Shown in pieces: positions 2,371-12,371 of a stretch of DNA of 64,000 nt. This DNA is from a bacterium (GTDB lineage Bacteria; Ratteibacteria; UBA8468; B48-G9; DTJG01): positions 16,007 to 80,006 of the forward strand of contig JAJYYV010000004.1 in NCBI GenBank assembly GCA_021800535.1. Direction: 5' to 3'. The notes under the pieces are model-generated. The model saw only the letters and a program-made list of their open reading frames with translations. It was not told where the DNA came from and made no database searches. Every line of letters starts with the position of its first letter. The stretch's first letter is position 1. Made by a program: the position numbers and the translations under genes.

Positions 2371-2429
2371 TTGTATGCCAGCGTCCATATCCATTTTCCC
2401 TGTATCGCATACTTATGGGTTGGTCTGTT
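2371..2429 (-). repeat. RHS core relic (57-bp fragment)
   Basis: 55/57 nt identical to 10395..10451, which encodes ...[17 protein letters not shown] of RHS copy B. It is intergenic and has no ORF context. Confidence 0.6.
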
Positions 2430-2435
2430 TTGTTG

Positions 2436-2867
2436 TTAAATAAACTTACTAAAAAATTGACACATTTTTTCTAAATTTTCTTTTTGATTAGATGGCATAA
2501 TTCTAAAAATTCCAATTTTTATTTTTGGAATTTTTATTATATGTGGCTCAGAATATTTTTTAAGTTTGATATAAAAAATTTTAGCAGTTAAAAAATTCTT
2601 GATATCTATTTTTTCTATTTCAGAAAAATCTATAGATGTTAATCTATCAAAAGAATAATATGATGAAATTTCTGCTATTAATAAACGTTGATTAGTTAAT
2701 CCAATCAAAAAATTTCTTACAGGAACAGTTTGTCCAGTTTGTGACAAAATATTTTGTAAAATATAGTTCCAAAAAGAAAAATATTCTAAACCTAAAACAT
2801 ACGAATTTAGAGTTTCTTGTTGATTTAAACATTTTGAAAATTCTTCTTTTATAACTTCGTCTGTCAT
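2436..2867 (-). CDS. hypothetical protein
   Basis: 143-aa ORF downstream of the propeller gene. No recognisable motif. Confidence 0.35.
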   Translation of the reverse strand: MTDEVIKEEFSKCLNQQETLNSYVLGLEYFSFWNYILQNILSQTGQTVPVRNFLIGLTNQRLLIAEISSYYSFDRLTSIDFSEIEKIDIKNFLTAKIFYIKLKKYSEPHIIKIPKIKIGIFRIMPSNQKENLEKMCQFFSKFI

Positions 2868-2879
2868 TTTATATTTTGA

Positions 2880-4358
2880 TTATTTTATAAAATTATTCCC
2901 TACAGTAACAAATATATTATTTCCATATGTAATTCCATTGAGTACATTAGGTATTCTTAAATTTTGCTTTGTCCATTTTATTCCATTTAAAGAAGTTATA
3001 ATTACGCCATATGGGTTTTGTTCAATAATCTGATATGCTCCTCCTACTGCCACAAATTTTCCATCACCATATGTGATACTGTTAAGTATGCTAATAATTG
3101 GTAAATTTTGTTTTTGCCAAGTTTTTCCATTATAAGAAGTTAGAATCGTATCTCCAACAGCTACAAATTTACCACCCCCGTATGTAATAGCAAAAAGATT
3201 GTTAGATATTCCTGAATTTCTATTTATCCATTTTTTCCCGTTAACAGAGGTAATAATTATACCATAAGAATTTCCCATACTTGGACTATAGTTTCCTCCA
3301 ACAGCTATAAATTCATTATTTCCATATGTTATTCCTCGAATAGAATTAATTGTTTTAGAATTTTGTTTAACCCAATTTTTTCCATTAGAAGAAGTAAGAA
3401 TTGTTCCATTATCTCCCACTGCAACAAATTTTTTCTTTCCATATGTGATCCCATTAAGTTGATAATTTATACCAGAATTTTGTTTAACCCAATTTTTTCC
3501 ATTAGAAGAAGTAAGAATTGTTCCATTATCTCCCACTGCAACAAATTTTTTCTTTCCATATACTATTCCGTTAAGCCAAGCAATTGTTCCAGAATTTTGT
3601 TTTATCCAATTTTTTCCATTAGAAGAAGTTAAAATTGCATTTCCAACGGCTACAAATTCCTCATTCCCATATGTAATTGCAGAAAAACTATTAGATATTT
3701 CTGAACTCCTATTTATCCATATGACTCCATTTGAAGAACTTAAAATTGGTGTTAAAATACTTCTTTGGAATTTTTGTTTTTTTAATGGAAGTAAAATTTT
3801 AAATAAGAAAATTAACAAGATAATAATAATGAAAATGCTTAATATAATTCCTATGATTTTTTTAAAATTAAAAGGTTTGATTTTACTCGTAATTGGACTA
3901 TTGAATAATTTTTTTAATTTTAATTTTTCTCCAATAAATCCACCTAATATACCAAAGGGAATAACCAAAAAAAGGGATAATTTAATATAAAAAATATGAG
4001 GAATACTATTCAATGGAAATATCACCGGTAAAGATTCTATCAAAAACAAAAGAATAACAACTACTGCAACAAATTTTGTACCACCTTTTCCTACTATATA
4101 TCCCATAATAAACATGCCTATAAATGTAGGTATAATAGATTCTCCAATCAAACTTAACTTAAGTAATTTATTATAATAATTGAATAAACTCATTGTATAA
4201 TATGTGCTTGATAATTTATTTGATAAATTTGTAATTATAAATTTATCATAAATTGAAAATATAATATTTCTAACGAAATAGCCTATAAAAAAAGCGAAAA
4301 TTCCAATTTTGATTTTATATTTATCTAATATTTTACTTTTAAATAAAGTTAGTTTCAT
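2880..4358 (-). CDS. polytopic-membrane-anchored Asp-box/BNR-like beta-propeller protein
   Basis: N-terminal ~190 aa with 4-5 hydrophobic helices. Then 7 repeats with a 39-aa period: ITYGxxKFVAVGxxGTILTSSNGKNWxKQNSG. The S-x-[DN]-G-x-x-W core is Asp-box like. Confidence 0.7.
   Translation of the reverse strand: MKLTLFKSKILDKYKIKIGIFAFFIGYFVRNIIFSIYDKFIITNLSNKLSSTYYTMSLFNYYNKLLKLSLIGESIIPTFIGMFIMGYIVGKGGTKFVAVVVILLFLIESLPVIFPLNSIPHIFYIKLSLFLVIPFGILGGFIGEKLKLKKLFNSPITSKIKPFNFKKIIGIILSIFIIIILLIFLFKILLPLKKQKFQRSILTPILSSSNGVIWINRSSEISNSFSAITYGNEEFVAVGNAILTSSNGKNWIKQNSGTIAWLNGIVYGKKKFVAVGDNGTILTSSNGKNWVKQNSGINYQLNGITYGKKKFVAVGDNGTILTSSNGKNWVKQNSKTINSIRGITYGNNEFIAVGGNYSPSMGNSYGIIITSVNGKKWINRNSGISNNLFAITYGGGKFVAVGDTILTSYNGKTWQKQNLPIISILNSITYGDGKFVAVGGAYQIIEQNPYGVIITSLNGIKWTKQNLRIPNVLNGITYGNNIFVTVGNNFIK
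3361..3594. repeat. 117-bp tandem duplication (2 copies, 84 nt perfect) inside the propeller gene
   Basis: 3361..3444 is identical to 3478..3561. Period 117 nt = one 39-aa blade (GKKKFVAVGDNGTILTSSNGKNWVKQNS). Confidence 0.85.
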
Positions 4359-4372
4359 TATTTTAATAAAAA

Positions 4373-10510: not shown

Positions 10511-10593
10511 CTGGTCTATCCCATTTATTGTGTCAAAGAAATATTGGCTTACTTTTCCTCTTACATTTTTCTTATATACTCTCTTTGTTCCAC

Positions 10594-10652
10594 TTTATTC
10601 CATTTGGTGAAGTTAGAATTGTACCATTAGAGTCTACTGCTACAAATTTAGG
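10594..10652 (-). pseudogene. fragment of a beta-propeller blade fused upstream of RHS module B
   Basis: Minus-strand translation PKFVAVDSNGTILTSPNGIKW matches the blade consensus. It is out of frame with the RHS cassette and runs into it. Confidence 0.5.
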
Positions 10653-10657
10653 TAGAT

Positions 10658-10912
10658 TTACCCATTTTTATCAAAAATTTTAATCTTCCATTTTTTATGC
10701 AACCAATTTGCAATAATTATTAAAAATACCCCTAAAAAGCCTAATATTAACCCCAAATATCCTATTTTTACCAAATGTATATTTTTATATATTTGAGAAG
10801 GACTTAAACCTAGAATAAATATAGCACTAATAGTAATACCAATAGCGAATCCATAAATTGTACCTACTAAATAAACTTTTTTGGTATTATGTAAATCTGA
10901 TGAATTCTTCAT
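10658..10912 (-). CDS. small 2-TM membrane protein (candidate immunity protein for tip A)
   Basis: 84 aa with two hydrophobic helices, immediately downstream of RHS module A. Confidence 0.45.
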   Translation of the reverse strand: MKNSSDLHNTKKVYLVGTIYGFAIGITISAIFILGLSPSQIYKNIHLVKIGYLGLILGFLGVFLIIIANWLHKKWKIKIFDKNG

Positions 10913-10946
10913 TTTTTGATTTTTTATACAGCAAAATTAAAAAAAT

Positions 10947-12371
10947 TTATTCCTGCAATGGAGGATTATAATAATAAACTCCAGAGTTAACCCCACCTAA
11001 CCCACCACCTTCACTATTTCCACTATTCTTTATGCATTTTATTCCCCATTCTGTACATGATTGCTCTTCACATTCATGAAATGCTACAACAAGAGCTGTT
11101 ACATCAGATGCCCACATTTCAGGTCCTATCCATGGTATATTCCCTCCTGTTCTTTCTATCCACGCCAATATTCCATTAAGCACAACACTTCCCAAATTAA
11201 TCGATAAAGGTTTTGCAGTTAGAGCCAAAGCACAAGATCCTGCGCCAACATATCCCCAAATTTGCCAGTTATACTGATACTTTAAACAAACACTTTTATA
11301 ATGACCATTACAACACAAACCAGTAGGGTCTACATAATTTATAGGGTCATTATTTACGAAAATATAGGCAGGAGTGAAAATCGCATTGGAAGAAGGTGAA
11401 TAGTTATTTATTAAATTATTATTTTGATTGGTATTGCCACAGCATCCACATCCTGAATTTCCGTTTGCAGATGGCAAATTATTCTCTGTGGTGTAGGTAG
11501 GCACTTCTCTTAAAAGCGGGTCTACTTCAAGGAAACGGCCAAGTCTTGGGTCTTGGTATCTTGCTCTGTAGTAATATAATCCTGCGTCTCTGTCATATTC
11601 TCTTCCTTGATAAGTGATTGTATTTCTCATTCCGTTTTGTCCCCAGTTTTGCAGTCCACCGAAAGGTGTCCCGTCTCCTATGTTTTCGCCCTCTCCTGTG
11701 TCTTCTCCTTTATTCATCATCTCTCCAAATGGTAGGTAGTTGTATGTGGCTATGACTTGCCCCCTTGAATTTGTCCGTTGTCTCACATTCCCTTGCCCAT
11801 CATAGAGGTAATAAATTGTGTGCCAGCGGCCATATCCATTTTCCTTGTACTGTCGCATTTCTATTGGTTGGTCTGTTGTGTCTCCGTAGGTGTATATTTT
11901 CTTTGCCCTCCCATATTTATTATACACTATAAGCACCTGGTCTATCCCATTTATTGTGTCAAAGAAATATTGGCTTACTTTACCTCTTACATTTTTCTTA
12001 TATACTCTCTTTGTTCCACAATCGCAGTTATGGAATATCTCTGTTTTGTTGTTCGGGAACTCTATTTGGGTCAGTAGGTTATTGTAGTCATATGTATATG
12101 TTGTGGTGAATGTCCCGCAATTCTGATTTTCATTTCCGCCTATTTCTCCTTTTGTAATCTTAACCTGTTTTGTTGCTATATTCCCATTTGCGTCGTAGGT
12201 GTAGTTTGTTGTTGTTATTGGTATTGTTATCTGATTTCTTGGTGTATTGATTGTTTTTTCGTTTTGTTTCTGTATTAGTTGTTCCTGATTATTGTATGTA
12301 TATATTATTGTTTCTTCTGGCATTACACATTGCGTCATCAAAAATCTATGTGAATTCGCTTTGCTCCTCAA
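10947..12371 (-). CDS. N-terminally truncated RHS protein: YD repeats + core + C-terminal tip A
   Basis: [91 protein letters not shown] and ...[12 protein letters not shown], then a 135-aa tail. The frame opens at TTG directly after a stop. There is no RHS N-terminal shell. Confidence 0.85.
   Translation of the reverse strand: [474 protein letters not shown]

What the first reader, a model, noticed from the sequence alone, without database searches (positions are those of the whole stretch)
2371..12371. Array of four RHS core + variable C-terminal tip cassettes with no full-length rhs gene and no canonical start codons
Four copies of the same RHS repeat-associated core recur on the minus strand. 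The shared motifs are [24 protein letters not shown], [41 protein letters not shown]...YYYRARYQ...GRFLEVDPL and NPINYxDPTG. The copies lie at ~4.64-5.40, 6.84-7.25, 9.88-10.59 and 11.35-12.06 kb, with near-identical nucleotide sequence over hundreds of bp. Each is fused after the DPxG boundary to a different, unrelated 88-135 aa tail (tips A-D). This is the classic polymorphic-toxin C-terminal displacement architecture. All four open frames start directly after an upstream stop with only GTG/TTG available. Only the first copy (10947..12371) keeps ~200 aa of YD repeats. None has the ~1000-aa RHS shell or any N-terminal trafficking domain (PAAR, VgrG-associated, signal peptide). cysH abuts the array. 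Copy C carries an internal deletion of the YQGREYDR segment. I could not assign any of the four tips to a named toxin family by eye. This could be an orphan toxin-tip reservoir that recombines with a main rhs gene elsewhere. It could equally be a decaying locus.
Basis: partly seen in the sequence, partly recalled or inferred. Interest (0 to 1): 0.8.

Follow-up and report, generated by a model that had tools for sequence, protein, structure and literature searches.

The report
Leftover RHS toxin-tip cassettes, Omnitrophota genome
This is a row of four leftover end-pieces of an RHS toxin gene in an uncultured Omnitrophota bacterium, each followed by membrane-protein genes; such left-behind toxin cassettes are well known, and here the delivery part of the gene is missing, so the locus is probably silent and decaying.

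Summary
On the minus strand, 2369-12371, there are four copies of an RHS repeat-associated core (R1 10947-12371, R2 9461-10594, R3 6531-7259, R4 4373-5401). Each is fused after NPINYxDPTG to an unrelated 81-131 aa tail. A 62-nt fifth core relic lies at 2372-2433. TIGR03696 passes its cutoff in R1, R2 and R4; R3 has lost the middle of the core. The window is a 140-kb contig of an Omnitrophota metagenome genome, and independent assemblies reproduce the array.

The core copies differ almost only at synonymous sites (dN/dS 0-0.15), and every indel is in frame. They therefore diverged as working genes and were stacked by serial C-terminal displacement.

The locus now looks silent and eroding:
- R1 is cut off 44 nt after cysH and keeps only about 200 aa of YD repeats.
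- R3 lacks half the autoprotease.
- One propeller gene is reduced to a relic.
- The only SNP against a second assembly is a stop codon in R4.

The tips have no homologues or recognisable fold. Each tip is followed closely by a membrane-anchored beta-propeller or TM protein, which are candidate immunity genes (unproven). Two reader details are wrong: R1 and R3 do have in-frame ATGs, and the copies are 80-91% identical, not near-identical. Verdict: a new member of a known kind, of modest interest.

The parts
10947..12371 (-). R1: 5'-truncated rhs gene. It has about 200 aa of YD repeats, then the RHS-associated core, a spacer and tip 1 (tip = 10950-11318, 123 aa, 7 Cys). The frame opens 44 nt after the cysH stop. 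In-frame ATGs lie at 12338 and 12323.
   Evidence: PF05593 27.2 bits and TIGR03696 62.4 bits. The 458-aa product is seen on 7 contigs.
12378..12408 (.). 14-bp-stem hairpin between the cysH stop and the start of the R1 frame. It looks like a terminator on the + strand but has a weak U-tract on the - strand.
   Evidence: sequence.
10658..10912 (-). 84-aa protein with two TM-like segments, 34 nt after tip 1. It is a candidate immunity gene, or the N-terminal remnant of a TM-propeller gene.
10572..10667 (-). One-blade relic of a beta-propeller gene (KFVAVDSNGTILTSPNGIKWNKESI*). It is joined to the R2 core through the shared run GTGGAACAAAGAG.
   Evidence: Repeat families D4/D8; frame reading; alignment.
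9461..10594 (-). R2: orphan core fragment (from GTKRVYKK) + spacer + tip 2 (9464-9856, 131 aa, predicted four-helix bundle). The first start-capable codon is GTG at 10510.
   Evidence: TIGR03696 45.0 bits. AF2 pLDDT 66.
8403..9449 (-). prop2: beta-propeller protein with a signal peptide or TM anchor (348 aa), 11 nt after tip 2.
8080..8409 (-). Start-less open frame of 109 codons with no family match. It is probably another 5'-truncated relic; JGI calls only its last 40 codons as a gene.
7252..8067 (-). 271-aa protein with about six TM segments. Its stop abuts the R3 core.
6531..7259 (-). R3: orphan core fragment (from KTEIFRNCSCGTKRVY) with an internal loss of YQGREYDR...GRFLEVDPL, + tip 3 (6534-6815, 94 aa). 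ATG at 7142.
   Evidence: TIGR03696 scores only 18.2 bits, matching profile positions 57-75.
5420..6538 (-). prop3: 372-aa protein with three N-terminal TM segments and a beta-propeller. It overlaps the end of tip 3 by 8 nt.
4373..5401 (-). R4: orphan core fragment (from [13 protein letters not shown]) + 94-residue spacer + tip 4 (4376-4618, 81 aa). The first start-capable codon is GTG at 5299. An allele with CAA->TAA at 5131 exists in another assembly.
   Evidence: TIGR03696 49.5 bits. Nonsense allele.
2880..4358 (-). prop4: 492-aa protein with an N-terminal multi-TM region of about 200 aa and a beta-propeller, 14 nt after tip 4.
2436..2867 (-). 143-aa bacterial PH-domain (bPH_3) protein, 12 nt after prop4.
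   Evidence: 23.4 bits, cutoff 23.
2372..2433 (-). R5: 62-nt relic of the core ([19 protein letters not shown]), 95% identical to R2 10394-10455. It marks the distal end of the array.
   Evidence: Family D11; frame reading; tblastn 2369-2449, E = 1e-6.

Best explanation
The locus is the remains of an rhs polymorphic-toxin locus in an uncultured Omnitrophota bacterium.

How it arose. New 'core-end + toxin tip + protective gene(s)' modules were repeatedly recombined into the conserved 3' core of one rhs gene. Each event pushed the previous tip and its downstream genes further downstream, where they remained as a start-less orphan. This is serial C-terminal displacement. It produced the stack R1 > R2 > R3 > R4 (> relic R5). 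The stacking history is inferred from the sequence pattern.

What happened next. A deletion then removed everything upstream of the last ~200 aa of YD repeats of the expressed copy (R1), joining it to the cysH terminator region. The truncation itself is shown. As a result no copy can build the ~840-residue RHS cocoon or reach a secretion system. That consequence follows from established knowledge of Rhs structure.

Present state. The rhs fragments are now silent cassettes that are slowly eroding. Any gene that is still under selection is most likely one of the tightly coupled downstream membrane proteins: three TM/beta-propeller paralogues with unrelated N-terminal TM parts, an 84-aa TM protein, a 271-aa TM protein and a bPH protein. 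The best guess is that these are immunity proteins against envelope-acting, Cys-rich tips still used by relatives. The immunity role is inferred and untested. Direct repeats with 45-116 nt of exact identity would still allow RecA-type deletion or fusion between cassettes.
For: RHS identity:
- TIGR03696 passes its cutoff in R1, R2 and R4, and YD repeats are found in R1.

Displacement history:
- The tips are unrelated, while the cores are 80-91% identical.
- Core differences are overwhelmingly synonymous: dN/dS is 0.00-0.15 in three segments. dS rises 5'->3', from 0.05-0.33 to 0.37-0.85 and then 0.37-2.0. All indels are in frame.
- The copies therefore diverged as translated genes and share a homogenised 5' arm, as expected for imported modules recombining in the core.
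- The orphans R2, R3 and R4, and the orphan X2 in a related species, all begin within about 45 nt of each other.

The architecture matches published orphan rhs-CT/rhsI modules that lack initiation codons (PMC3150448).

Truncation and decay:
- The R1 frame opens right after the cysH hairpin.
- The same junction appears in the JGI contig, an NCBI MAG (99.84% identical), an ENA contig (99.993% over 15,089 nt) and a Logan contig.
- R3 lacks the first DP motif region.
- There is a propeller relic joined to R2 by microhomology, the R5 relic and a start-less 109-codon frame.
- The single SNP against the ENA assembly turns Gln57 of R4 into a stop.
- There is no further RHS sequence in the 64 kb. None of the proteins scanned against Pfam in the window matched a PAAR or VgrG family, nor did the genes annotated on the overlapping contig.
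- The Rhs shell needs about 840 residues (Rhs1 residues 420-1262; PMC8636562).

Downstream genes as partners:
- The gaps are 34, 11, -8 and 14 nt.
- The N-terminal TM parts are unrelated, while the propellers are 42-52% identical.
- The same tip > TM-propeller > core-fragment order occurs in a related Omnitrophota MAG.
Against: - All four long frames are still open in the window, and R1 and R3 have ATGs, so expression is not excluded.
- I could not search the rest of this genome. A full-length rhs with the same core elsewhere would make this a usable reservoir. The window's own contig was not retrievable from the metagenome collection either, so the negative scan says little.
- The decay evidence from populations is thin: one nonsense SNP and one frameshift. 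The frameshift lies near a chimeric contig end.
- The immunity role of the propellers is weak. The family is widespread, and four homologues examined elsewhere are not next to RHS genes. Homologous propellers paired with unrelated tips is odd. A 2012 survey found no beta-propeller immunity proteins (PMC3482391).
- The tips have no homologue or fold match, so even 'toxin' rests on position only.
Confidence: 0.68

Rival explanations
1. Live cassette reservoir. A full-length rhs gene elsewhere in the genome shares the ~0.3-0.6 kb core. It swaps its tip by homologous recombination with these silent cassettes, or R1 is restored by recombination with another strain. The array would then be a working store of alternative toxins and immunities.
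For: - The frames of all four cassettes are intact in the window.
- Exact repeats of 45-116 nt are long enough for homologous recombination.
- The 5' arm is homogenised (dS 0.05-0.33), which suggests ongoing gene conversion.
- Activation of an orphan Rhs toxin by recombination is documented in Salmonella (PMC3967940).
Against: - No close core other than this locus and one related MAG appeared in a 5.8-billion-protein search, in the species-representative genomes or in the metagenome scan. These searches are incomplete for this species.
- A fusion with R3 would lack half the autoprotease.
- A nonsense allele of R4 exists in a second population.
- Array order is the same in every assembly that spans it and consistent in the shorter contigs.
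Confidence: 0.15
2. Self-contained small genes. The fragments are translated from internal starts, namely the conserved GTG/ATG at (V/M)LIVYNKYG or downstream ATGs. They would act without a cocoon, for example as toxin-antitoxin-like modules with the downstream gene, as reported for Salmonella Rhs elements.
For: - A start-capable codon sits at the same position in all four copies, and it is ATG in R3.
- The tip and the downstream gene are tightly coupled or overlapping.
- There is a precedent for internally expressed main and orphan Rhs toxins acting as TA modules (PMC7043789).
Against: - No Shine-Dalgarno-like sequence precedes these codons (sequence).
- The promoter-like sites are no more frequent than in shuffled sequence: 79 against 67.9 +/- 9.7.
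- The nonsense allele lies downstream of that start in R4.
- The Cys-rich tips and membrane-anchored partners point to an envelope or extracellular site of action rather than a cytoplasmic TA pair.
Confidence: 0.07
3. A paralogous array of surface beta-propeller / membrane protein genes that merely carries rhs debris. The propeller genes have their own function (adhesion or envelope) that is unrelated to the tips, and the rhs fragments are passengers of duplications of that array.
For: - The propeller family (PF23366/PF25852) is large and taxonomically wide.
- It is not next to RHS genes in four other genomes.
- The propeller domains are homologous while the tips are not.
- No beta-propeller immunity protein was known in the 2012 survey.
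Against: - The tip > TM-propeller pairing recurs with a fifth, different tip in a second species.
- Spacing of 8-nt overlap to 14 nt suggests co-translation units.
- The N-terminal TM parts vary together with the tips.
- The synonymous-only divergence of the cores argues that the modules came from separate functional rhs genes, not from in-place duplication.
Confidence: 0.1

Closest known systems
Orphan rhs-CT/rhsI modules ('silent cassettes') downstream of rhs genes in Enterobacteriaceae (Poole et al. 2011, PMC3150448; C-terminal displacement model of Jackson et al. 2009, cited from memory)
   Same: - Partial core sequence without the delivery part.
- A frame without an initiation codon at its opening.
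- Abrupt divergence after the DPxG motif.
- A different tip in each module.
- Closely following downstream ORFs.
- Several modules in tandem, in the same orientation.
   Different: - No full-length main rhs heads the array here, because the first copy is itself 5'-truncated next to cysH.
- There is no vgrG/PAAR neighbourhood.
- The downstream genes are large membrane-anchored beta-propeller proteins, not small cytoplasmic immunity proteins.
- The tips have no relatives fused to full-length Rhs proteins anywhere.
- The host is Omnitrophota.
Salmonella Typhimurium main + orphan rhs locus (Koskiniemi et al. 2014, PMC3967940; Starsta et al. 2020, PMC7043789)
   Same: Direct repeats of core sequence allow recombination that fuses an orphan tip to the expressed gene. 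Orphans may also be expressed internally.
   Different: In Salmonella the main gene is full length and linked to a T6SS. Here no delivery module is present, and one cassette (R3) lacks part of the core.
Canonical Rhs C-terminal plug / aspartyl autoprotease (P. laumondii Rhs1, Jurenas et al. 2021, PMC8636562; TIGR03696)
   Same: The [27 protein letters not shown]...DP motif and a second DPxG directly before the variable tip.
   Different: The two DP motifs are 60-94 residues apart, against 17 in Rhs1. The spacer is itself variable and carries a Cys pair (GCGC/CPIC). Long spacers also occur in related environmental RHS proteins.
Immunity-gene arrays left by sequential effector displacement in Vibrio cholerae T6SS clusters (Kirchberger et al. 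2017, PMC5361080; seen in the search list only, not read)
   Same: The idea that displaced modules persist because their protective genes remain useful.
   Different: Those arrays retain mostly immunity genes. Here the toxin-tip fragments are retained as well.

Membership tests
RHS repeat-associated core domain (TIGR03696) | HMM score above the curated cutoff (32.5 bits) | tested here: met
   R1 scores 62.4, R2 45.0 and R4 49.5 bits. R3 scores 18.2 bits, below the cutoff, and matches only profile positions 57-75.
RHS/YD-repeat protein (PF05593, TIGR01643) | YD repeats forming the shell | tested here: met
   Met for R1 only: PF05593 27.2 bits (cutoff 22) and TIGR01643 19.0 bits (cutoff 15.8). 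R2-R4 have none.
Full-length Rhs element core protein (NF041261) | Complete ~1260-position core/shell (cutoff 2000 bits) | tested here: not met
   The best score is 18.5 bits, matching only profile positions 1198-1237. R1 is 474 aa. The Rhs1 shell alone spans residues 420-1262.
Rhs C-terminal aspartyl autoprotease | Two DPxGL-type motifs about 17 residues apart, with cleavage after the second | tested here: inconclusive
   Both motifs are present in R1, R2 and R4 (VDPLL ... DPTG) but lie 60-94 residues apart. The first motif is absent in R3. Cleavage is not testable here.
Orphan rhs-CT/rhsI module | Core fragment lacking an N-terminal part and an initiation codon at the frame opening, followed by a variable CT | tested here: met
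   The R2, R3 and R4 frames open directly after stops at 10594, 7259 and 5401. The tips are unrelated.
Orphan rhs-CT/rhsI module | Located downstream of a full-length main rhs gene | tested here: not met
   The upstream copy R1 is itself truncated 44 nt after cysH. No other RHS sequence is in the window.
Orphan rhs-CT/rhsI module | Cognate immunity gene immediately downstream that neutralises the tip | not testable with these tools
   ORFs follow at +34, +11, -8 and +14 nt. They have no match to known immunity families in Pfam or NCBIfam.
Polymorphic toxin CT domain | The same CT domain found on other toxin scaffolds, or a match to a known toxin family or fold | tested here: not met
   - There are no homologues beyond this population for the four tips.
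- Full HMMER on tip 2 gave only two spurious repeat hits.
- Pfam gave nothing.
- Foldseek against the PDB gave no hit with E < 0.8.
T6SS-linked Rhs effector | PAAR/VgrG/Eag genes or domains nearby | tested here: not met
   The genes around the array are housekeeping genes and a metal-efflux cluster. Not every small ORF was scanned.

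The most novel reading that the evidence does not exclude
Membrane-anchored beta-propeller proteins, with tip-specific N-terminal TM regions, are a new class of immunity or partner proteins for a set of Cys-rich, envelope-acting RHS tips with no known homologues. The tips ride on an RHS core variant with a long variable CxxC spacer between the two autoprotease motifs. Omnitrophota, a phylum of suspected predators and parasites, would keep this as a usable cassette store for a full-length rhs encoded elsewhere.
Probability: 0.15. Interest if true: 0.55.

Novelty: new member of a known kind. Interest (0 to 1): 0.3.

Why it matters
The locus extends the well-described rhs 'orphan cassette' phenomenon to Omnitrophota, an uncultured phylum of very small and possibly predatory bacteria. 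It shows that these bacteria take part, or recently took part, in polymorphic-toxin warfare. It also supplies five tip sequences with no known relatives, and a recurring tip/TM-propeller pairing that could be tested as toxin-immunity pairs. As it stands it is an annotation-level finding: a decaying example of a known architecture, not a new mechanism.

Tried and rejected
1. Search for a full-length rhs with this core.
   - The protein search with R1 returned only the locus's own R2 and R4, one related MAG and distant RHS proteins.
   - The genome-contig scan returned a single locus in a related species, at a contig end.
   - The metagenome-contig scan and the viral-contig scan returned nothing.
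   - The window's own contig was not retrievable from the metagenome collection, so these negatives are weak.
2. Naming the tips.
   - Pfam and NCBIfam on the whole ORFs and on the tips alone gave nothing.
   - A word-indexed search of the concatenated tips gave only self hits.
   - Exhaustive HMMER of tip 2 gave two hits that proved to be short repeat-inflated matches.
   - The AF2 model of tip 1 is unusable (pLDDT 32).
   - Tip 2 is modelled as a four-helix bundle (pLDDT 66) with no PDB match.
3. Propellers as a conserved RHS partner. Four homologues in other genomes sit in unrelated contexts, so there is no general synteny.
4. Assembly artefact. Rejected: the array is identical in order in independent JGI, ENA, NCBI and Logan assemblies.
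5. Alternative genetic code as the cause of the 'missing' starts and stops. Rejected: neighbouring housekeeping genes read normally with table 11.
6. Promoter and terminator scan. Promoter-like sites are not enriched over shuffles.
7. In-place duplication followed by neutral decay as the origin of the copies. Rejected because of dN/dS 0-0.15 and in-frame indels.
8. Tips as transmembrane pore-formers. No segment reaches a Kyte-Doolittle TM threshold.

Full report
SOURCE. The first 20,501 bases of the window are 100% identical to JGI metagenome 3300039716 contig Ga0438459_0000125 (140,588 bp). The same locus occurs in four other assemblies:
- NCBI MAG GCA_023485205.1 (Candidatus Omnitrophota; 99.84% over window 8549-17753).
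- ENA contig ERZ27237044:k141_77253 (140,852 bp; 99.993% over window 1-15089).
- ENA ERZ27236928 (100% over 4230-6437).
- A Logan contig spanning the cysH/R1 junction (100%).

The array's products are recorded on 6-8 contigs each. The structure is therefore not an assembly artefact. GC content is 30% overall, 33-38% in the rhs pieces and 21-31% in the interleaved genes.

OBSERVATION. I name the copies in minus-strand order:
- R1, 10947-12371.
- R2, 9461-10594.
- R3, 6531-7259.
- R4, 4373-5401.
- R5, a 62-nt relic at 2372-2433.

TIGR03696 is above its cutoff in R1, R2 and R4. It is below it in R3, which has lost everything between GEMMN and the segment just before NPINYKDPTG. YD repeats are detected only in R1. 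After DPTG the four tails (123, 131, 94 and 81 aa) are unrelated. tblastn with R1 finds nothing else in the 64 kb.

- R1 has in-frame ATGs at 12338 and 12323, used by gene callers, and R3 starts at ATG 7142.
- Copy identity is 80-91%, not near-identical. The longest exact runs are 116 nt (R1/R2) and 45-49 nt for the other pairs.
- A second variable segment, 60-94 residues with a Cys pair, lies between GRFLEVDPL and NPINYxDPTG.

ANATOMY OF THE ARRAY (all on the minus strand). The order is:
1. cysH.
2. A 14-bp hairpin (12378-12408).
3. R1.
4. An 84-aa two-TM protein.
5. A one-blade propeller relic (10572-10667).
6. R2.
7. prop2, a signal-anchored beta-propeller.
8. A start-less 109-codon frame (8080-8409).
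9. A 271-aa six-TM protein.
10. R3.
11. prop3, with 3 TM segments and a propeller, overlapping tip 3 by 8 nt.
12. R4.
13. prop4, with a ~200-aa multi-TM region and a propeller.
14. A bPH-domain protein.
15. R5.
16. The csoR-like / metal-efflux genes.

The relic blade (…NGIKWNKESI*) is joined to the R2 core at the run GTGGAACAAAGAG. That run is shared by propeller W-N-K-E/Q codons and the rhs C-G-T-K-R codons, which is a microhomology deletion junction. The three orphans begin within about 45 nt of each other, at GTKRVY, KTEIFRNCSCGTKRVY and [13 protein letters not shown]. An orphan fragment (X2) in a related species begins at the same place.

HOW THE COPIES DIVERGED. Nei-Gojobori counts were made on three ungapped core segments:

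| Segment | dS | dN |
|---|---|---|
| KRVY..RAKKIY | 0.05-0.33 | 0-0.03 |
| RWHT..GEMMN | 0.37-0.85 | 0-0.05 |
| NTITY..LREVP | 0.37-2.0 | 0.03-0.20 |

Overall dN/dS is 0.00-0.15, and all indels between copies are in frame. The copies therefore accumulated their differences while being translated, and the 5' arm is more homogenised than the 3' part. This fits modules that evolved in different functional rhs genes and were brought together by recombination in the conserved core (C-terminal displacement). It does not fit local duplication followed by neutral drift. R1 and the related-species protein P0001 share the same spacer type but have unrelated tips. R4 shares only the first ~20 spacer residues with R1. 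There are therefore at least two recombination boundaries, one of them exactly at DPTG.

PRESENT STATE. R1 retains about 200 residues upstream of the YQGREYDR core. The shell of a solved Rhs spans about 840 residues, plus N-terminal plug and trafficking domains (PMC8636562). No copy here can make a cocoon.

Signs of erosion:
- R3 lacks the first DP motif region.
- One propeller gene is reduced to a TM stub plus one blade.
- R5 and the 8080-8409 frame are fragments.
- The only nucleotide difference between the window and the ENA assembly over 15 kb is C>T at 5131, which converts Gln57 (CAA) of R4 to TAA.
- The NCBI MAG has a 5-nt insertion in prop2, although it lies near a chimeric contig end.

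The rest of the window is housekeeping: ClpB, Mur ligase, MurG, PFOR, two-component kinases and similar genes. Taken together, this is a silent, eroding cassette stack.

TIPS AND PARTNERS. The tips are Cys-rich (4-7 Cys) and lack TM-like segments. They have no detectable relatives:
- The concatenated-tip search returned only the locus itself.
- Exhaustive HMMER of tip 2 against 1.84 billion representatives returned two repeat-inflated false positives.
- Pfam found nothing.
- The AF2 single-sequence model failed for tip 1. For tip 2 it gave a moderate four-helix bundle with no PDB match.

Their toxin nature is therefore inferred only from position.

The downstream proteins are tightly coupled to the tips and are all membrane-anchored. 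The propeller domains are 42-52% identical, but the N-terminal TM parts are unrelated. The variable unit is thus spacer + tip + TM region, flanked by the conserved core on one side and conserved propeller repeats on the other. The same order, tip > 510-aa TM-propeller > core fragment, occurs in Omnitrophota MAG JAMDAS010000011.1 with a fifth, different tip.

Against an immunity role:
- The propeller family (PF23366/PF25852) is large and widespread.
- Four homologues elsewhere have no RHS neighbour.
- Zhang et al. 2012 noted that beta-propellers had not been found among immunity proteins.

I rate 'candidate immunity/partner' as plausible but unproven.

COMPARISON WITH KNOWN SYSTEMS. The architecture matches the orphan rhs-CT/rhsI 'silent cassettes' described by Poole et al. 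2011. Its potential for recombinational activation matches the Salmonella case (PMC3967940). Internal expression as TA-like modules (PMC7043789) is a minor rival.

Differences from the known cases:
- No full-length head gene.
- No T6SS context.
- Large membrane/propeller partners.
- Tips with no known relatives.
- A core whose two DP motifs are far apart. This last trait is shared with other environmental RHS proteins (P0004, P0005, P0006, P0009, P0024).

I found no paper describing Rhs loci in Omnitrophota; the five papers that contain both terms mention RHS only in passing.

VERDICT. The evidence favours a decaying orphan array over an active reservoir: roughly 0.68 against 0.15, with the remainder on internal expression or an unrelated propeller array. 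It is a new member of a known kind. Interest is 0.3.

Noticed in passing
window 34243-34485 (+), flanks ~34222-34533: A group I intron (Rfam RF00028, 100.7 bits, full-length match) sits inside a tRNA gene. The flanking exons show an acceptor stem tccggcg/cgccgga and a T-arm ggttcgaatcc. ARAGORN did not call this tRNA.
   Followed up: partly
window 5131 (minus-strand C); L012 position 9959: The only difference over 15,089 nt between the window and ENA contig ERZ27237044:k141_77253 is CAA>TAA (Gln57>stop) in the R4 core. Another ENA variant (P0255) has Pro>Leu in tip 4.
   Followed up: yes
window 11340-11530, 9870-10110, 4630-4920 (spacers of R1, R2, R4); proteins P0004, P0005, P0006, P0009, P0024: The two DPxG motifs of the RHS autoprotease are 60-94 residues apart here, against 17 in P. 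laumondii Rhs1. The spacer is variable and carries a Cys pair (SGCGCxG / GCPICGG). Related environmental RHS proteins from Omnitrophica, Kiritimatiellae and unnamed sources also have long spacers.
   Followed up: partly
window 8080-8409 (-): A 109-codon open frame without a start codon lies between prop2 and the 271-aa TM gene. It has no Pfam hit, and JGI annotates only its last 40 codons. It is likely a truncated gene relic.
   Followed up: partly
L003 2470-2876 (JAMDAS010000011.1): A related Omnitrophota MAG carries an rhs core fragment (111-aa ORF). It begins at the same core position as R2-R4 and breaks off after NTITYQG, just downstream of a 510-aa TM-propeller gene.
   Followed up: yes
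L001 9173-9496 and near window 9105: The NCBI MAG contig ends in an inverted copy of window 8360-8681, which looks like an assembly chimera. It also has a 5-nt insertion that splits prop2 into fragments of 115 and 86 aa.
   Followed up: partly
window 51339-53018 (-): A 559-aa protein with a TraG-D_C (coupling-protein) domain lies among housekeeping genes. Its neighbour, a 262-aa ORF, has no Pfam hit.
   Followed up: no
window 41701-46223 (-): Adjacent large repeat proteins: a 621-aa WD40/beta-propeller protein and an 886-aa HEAT-repeat protein with a CBM9-like domain.
   Followed up: no
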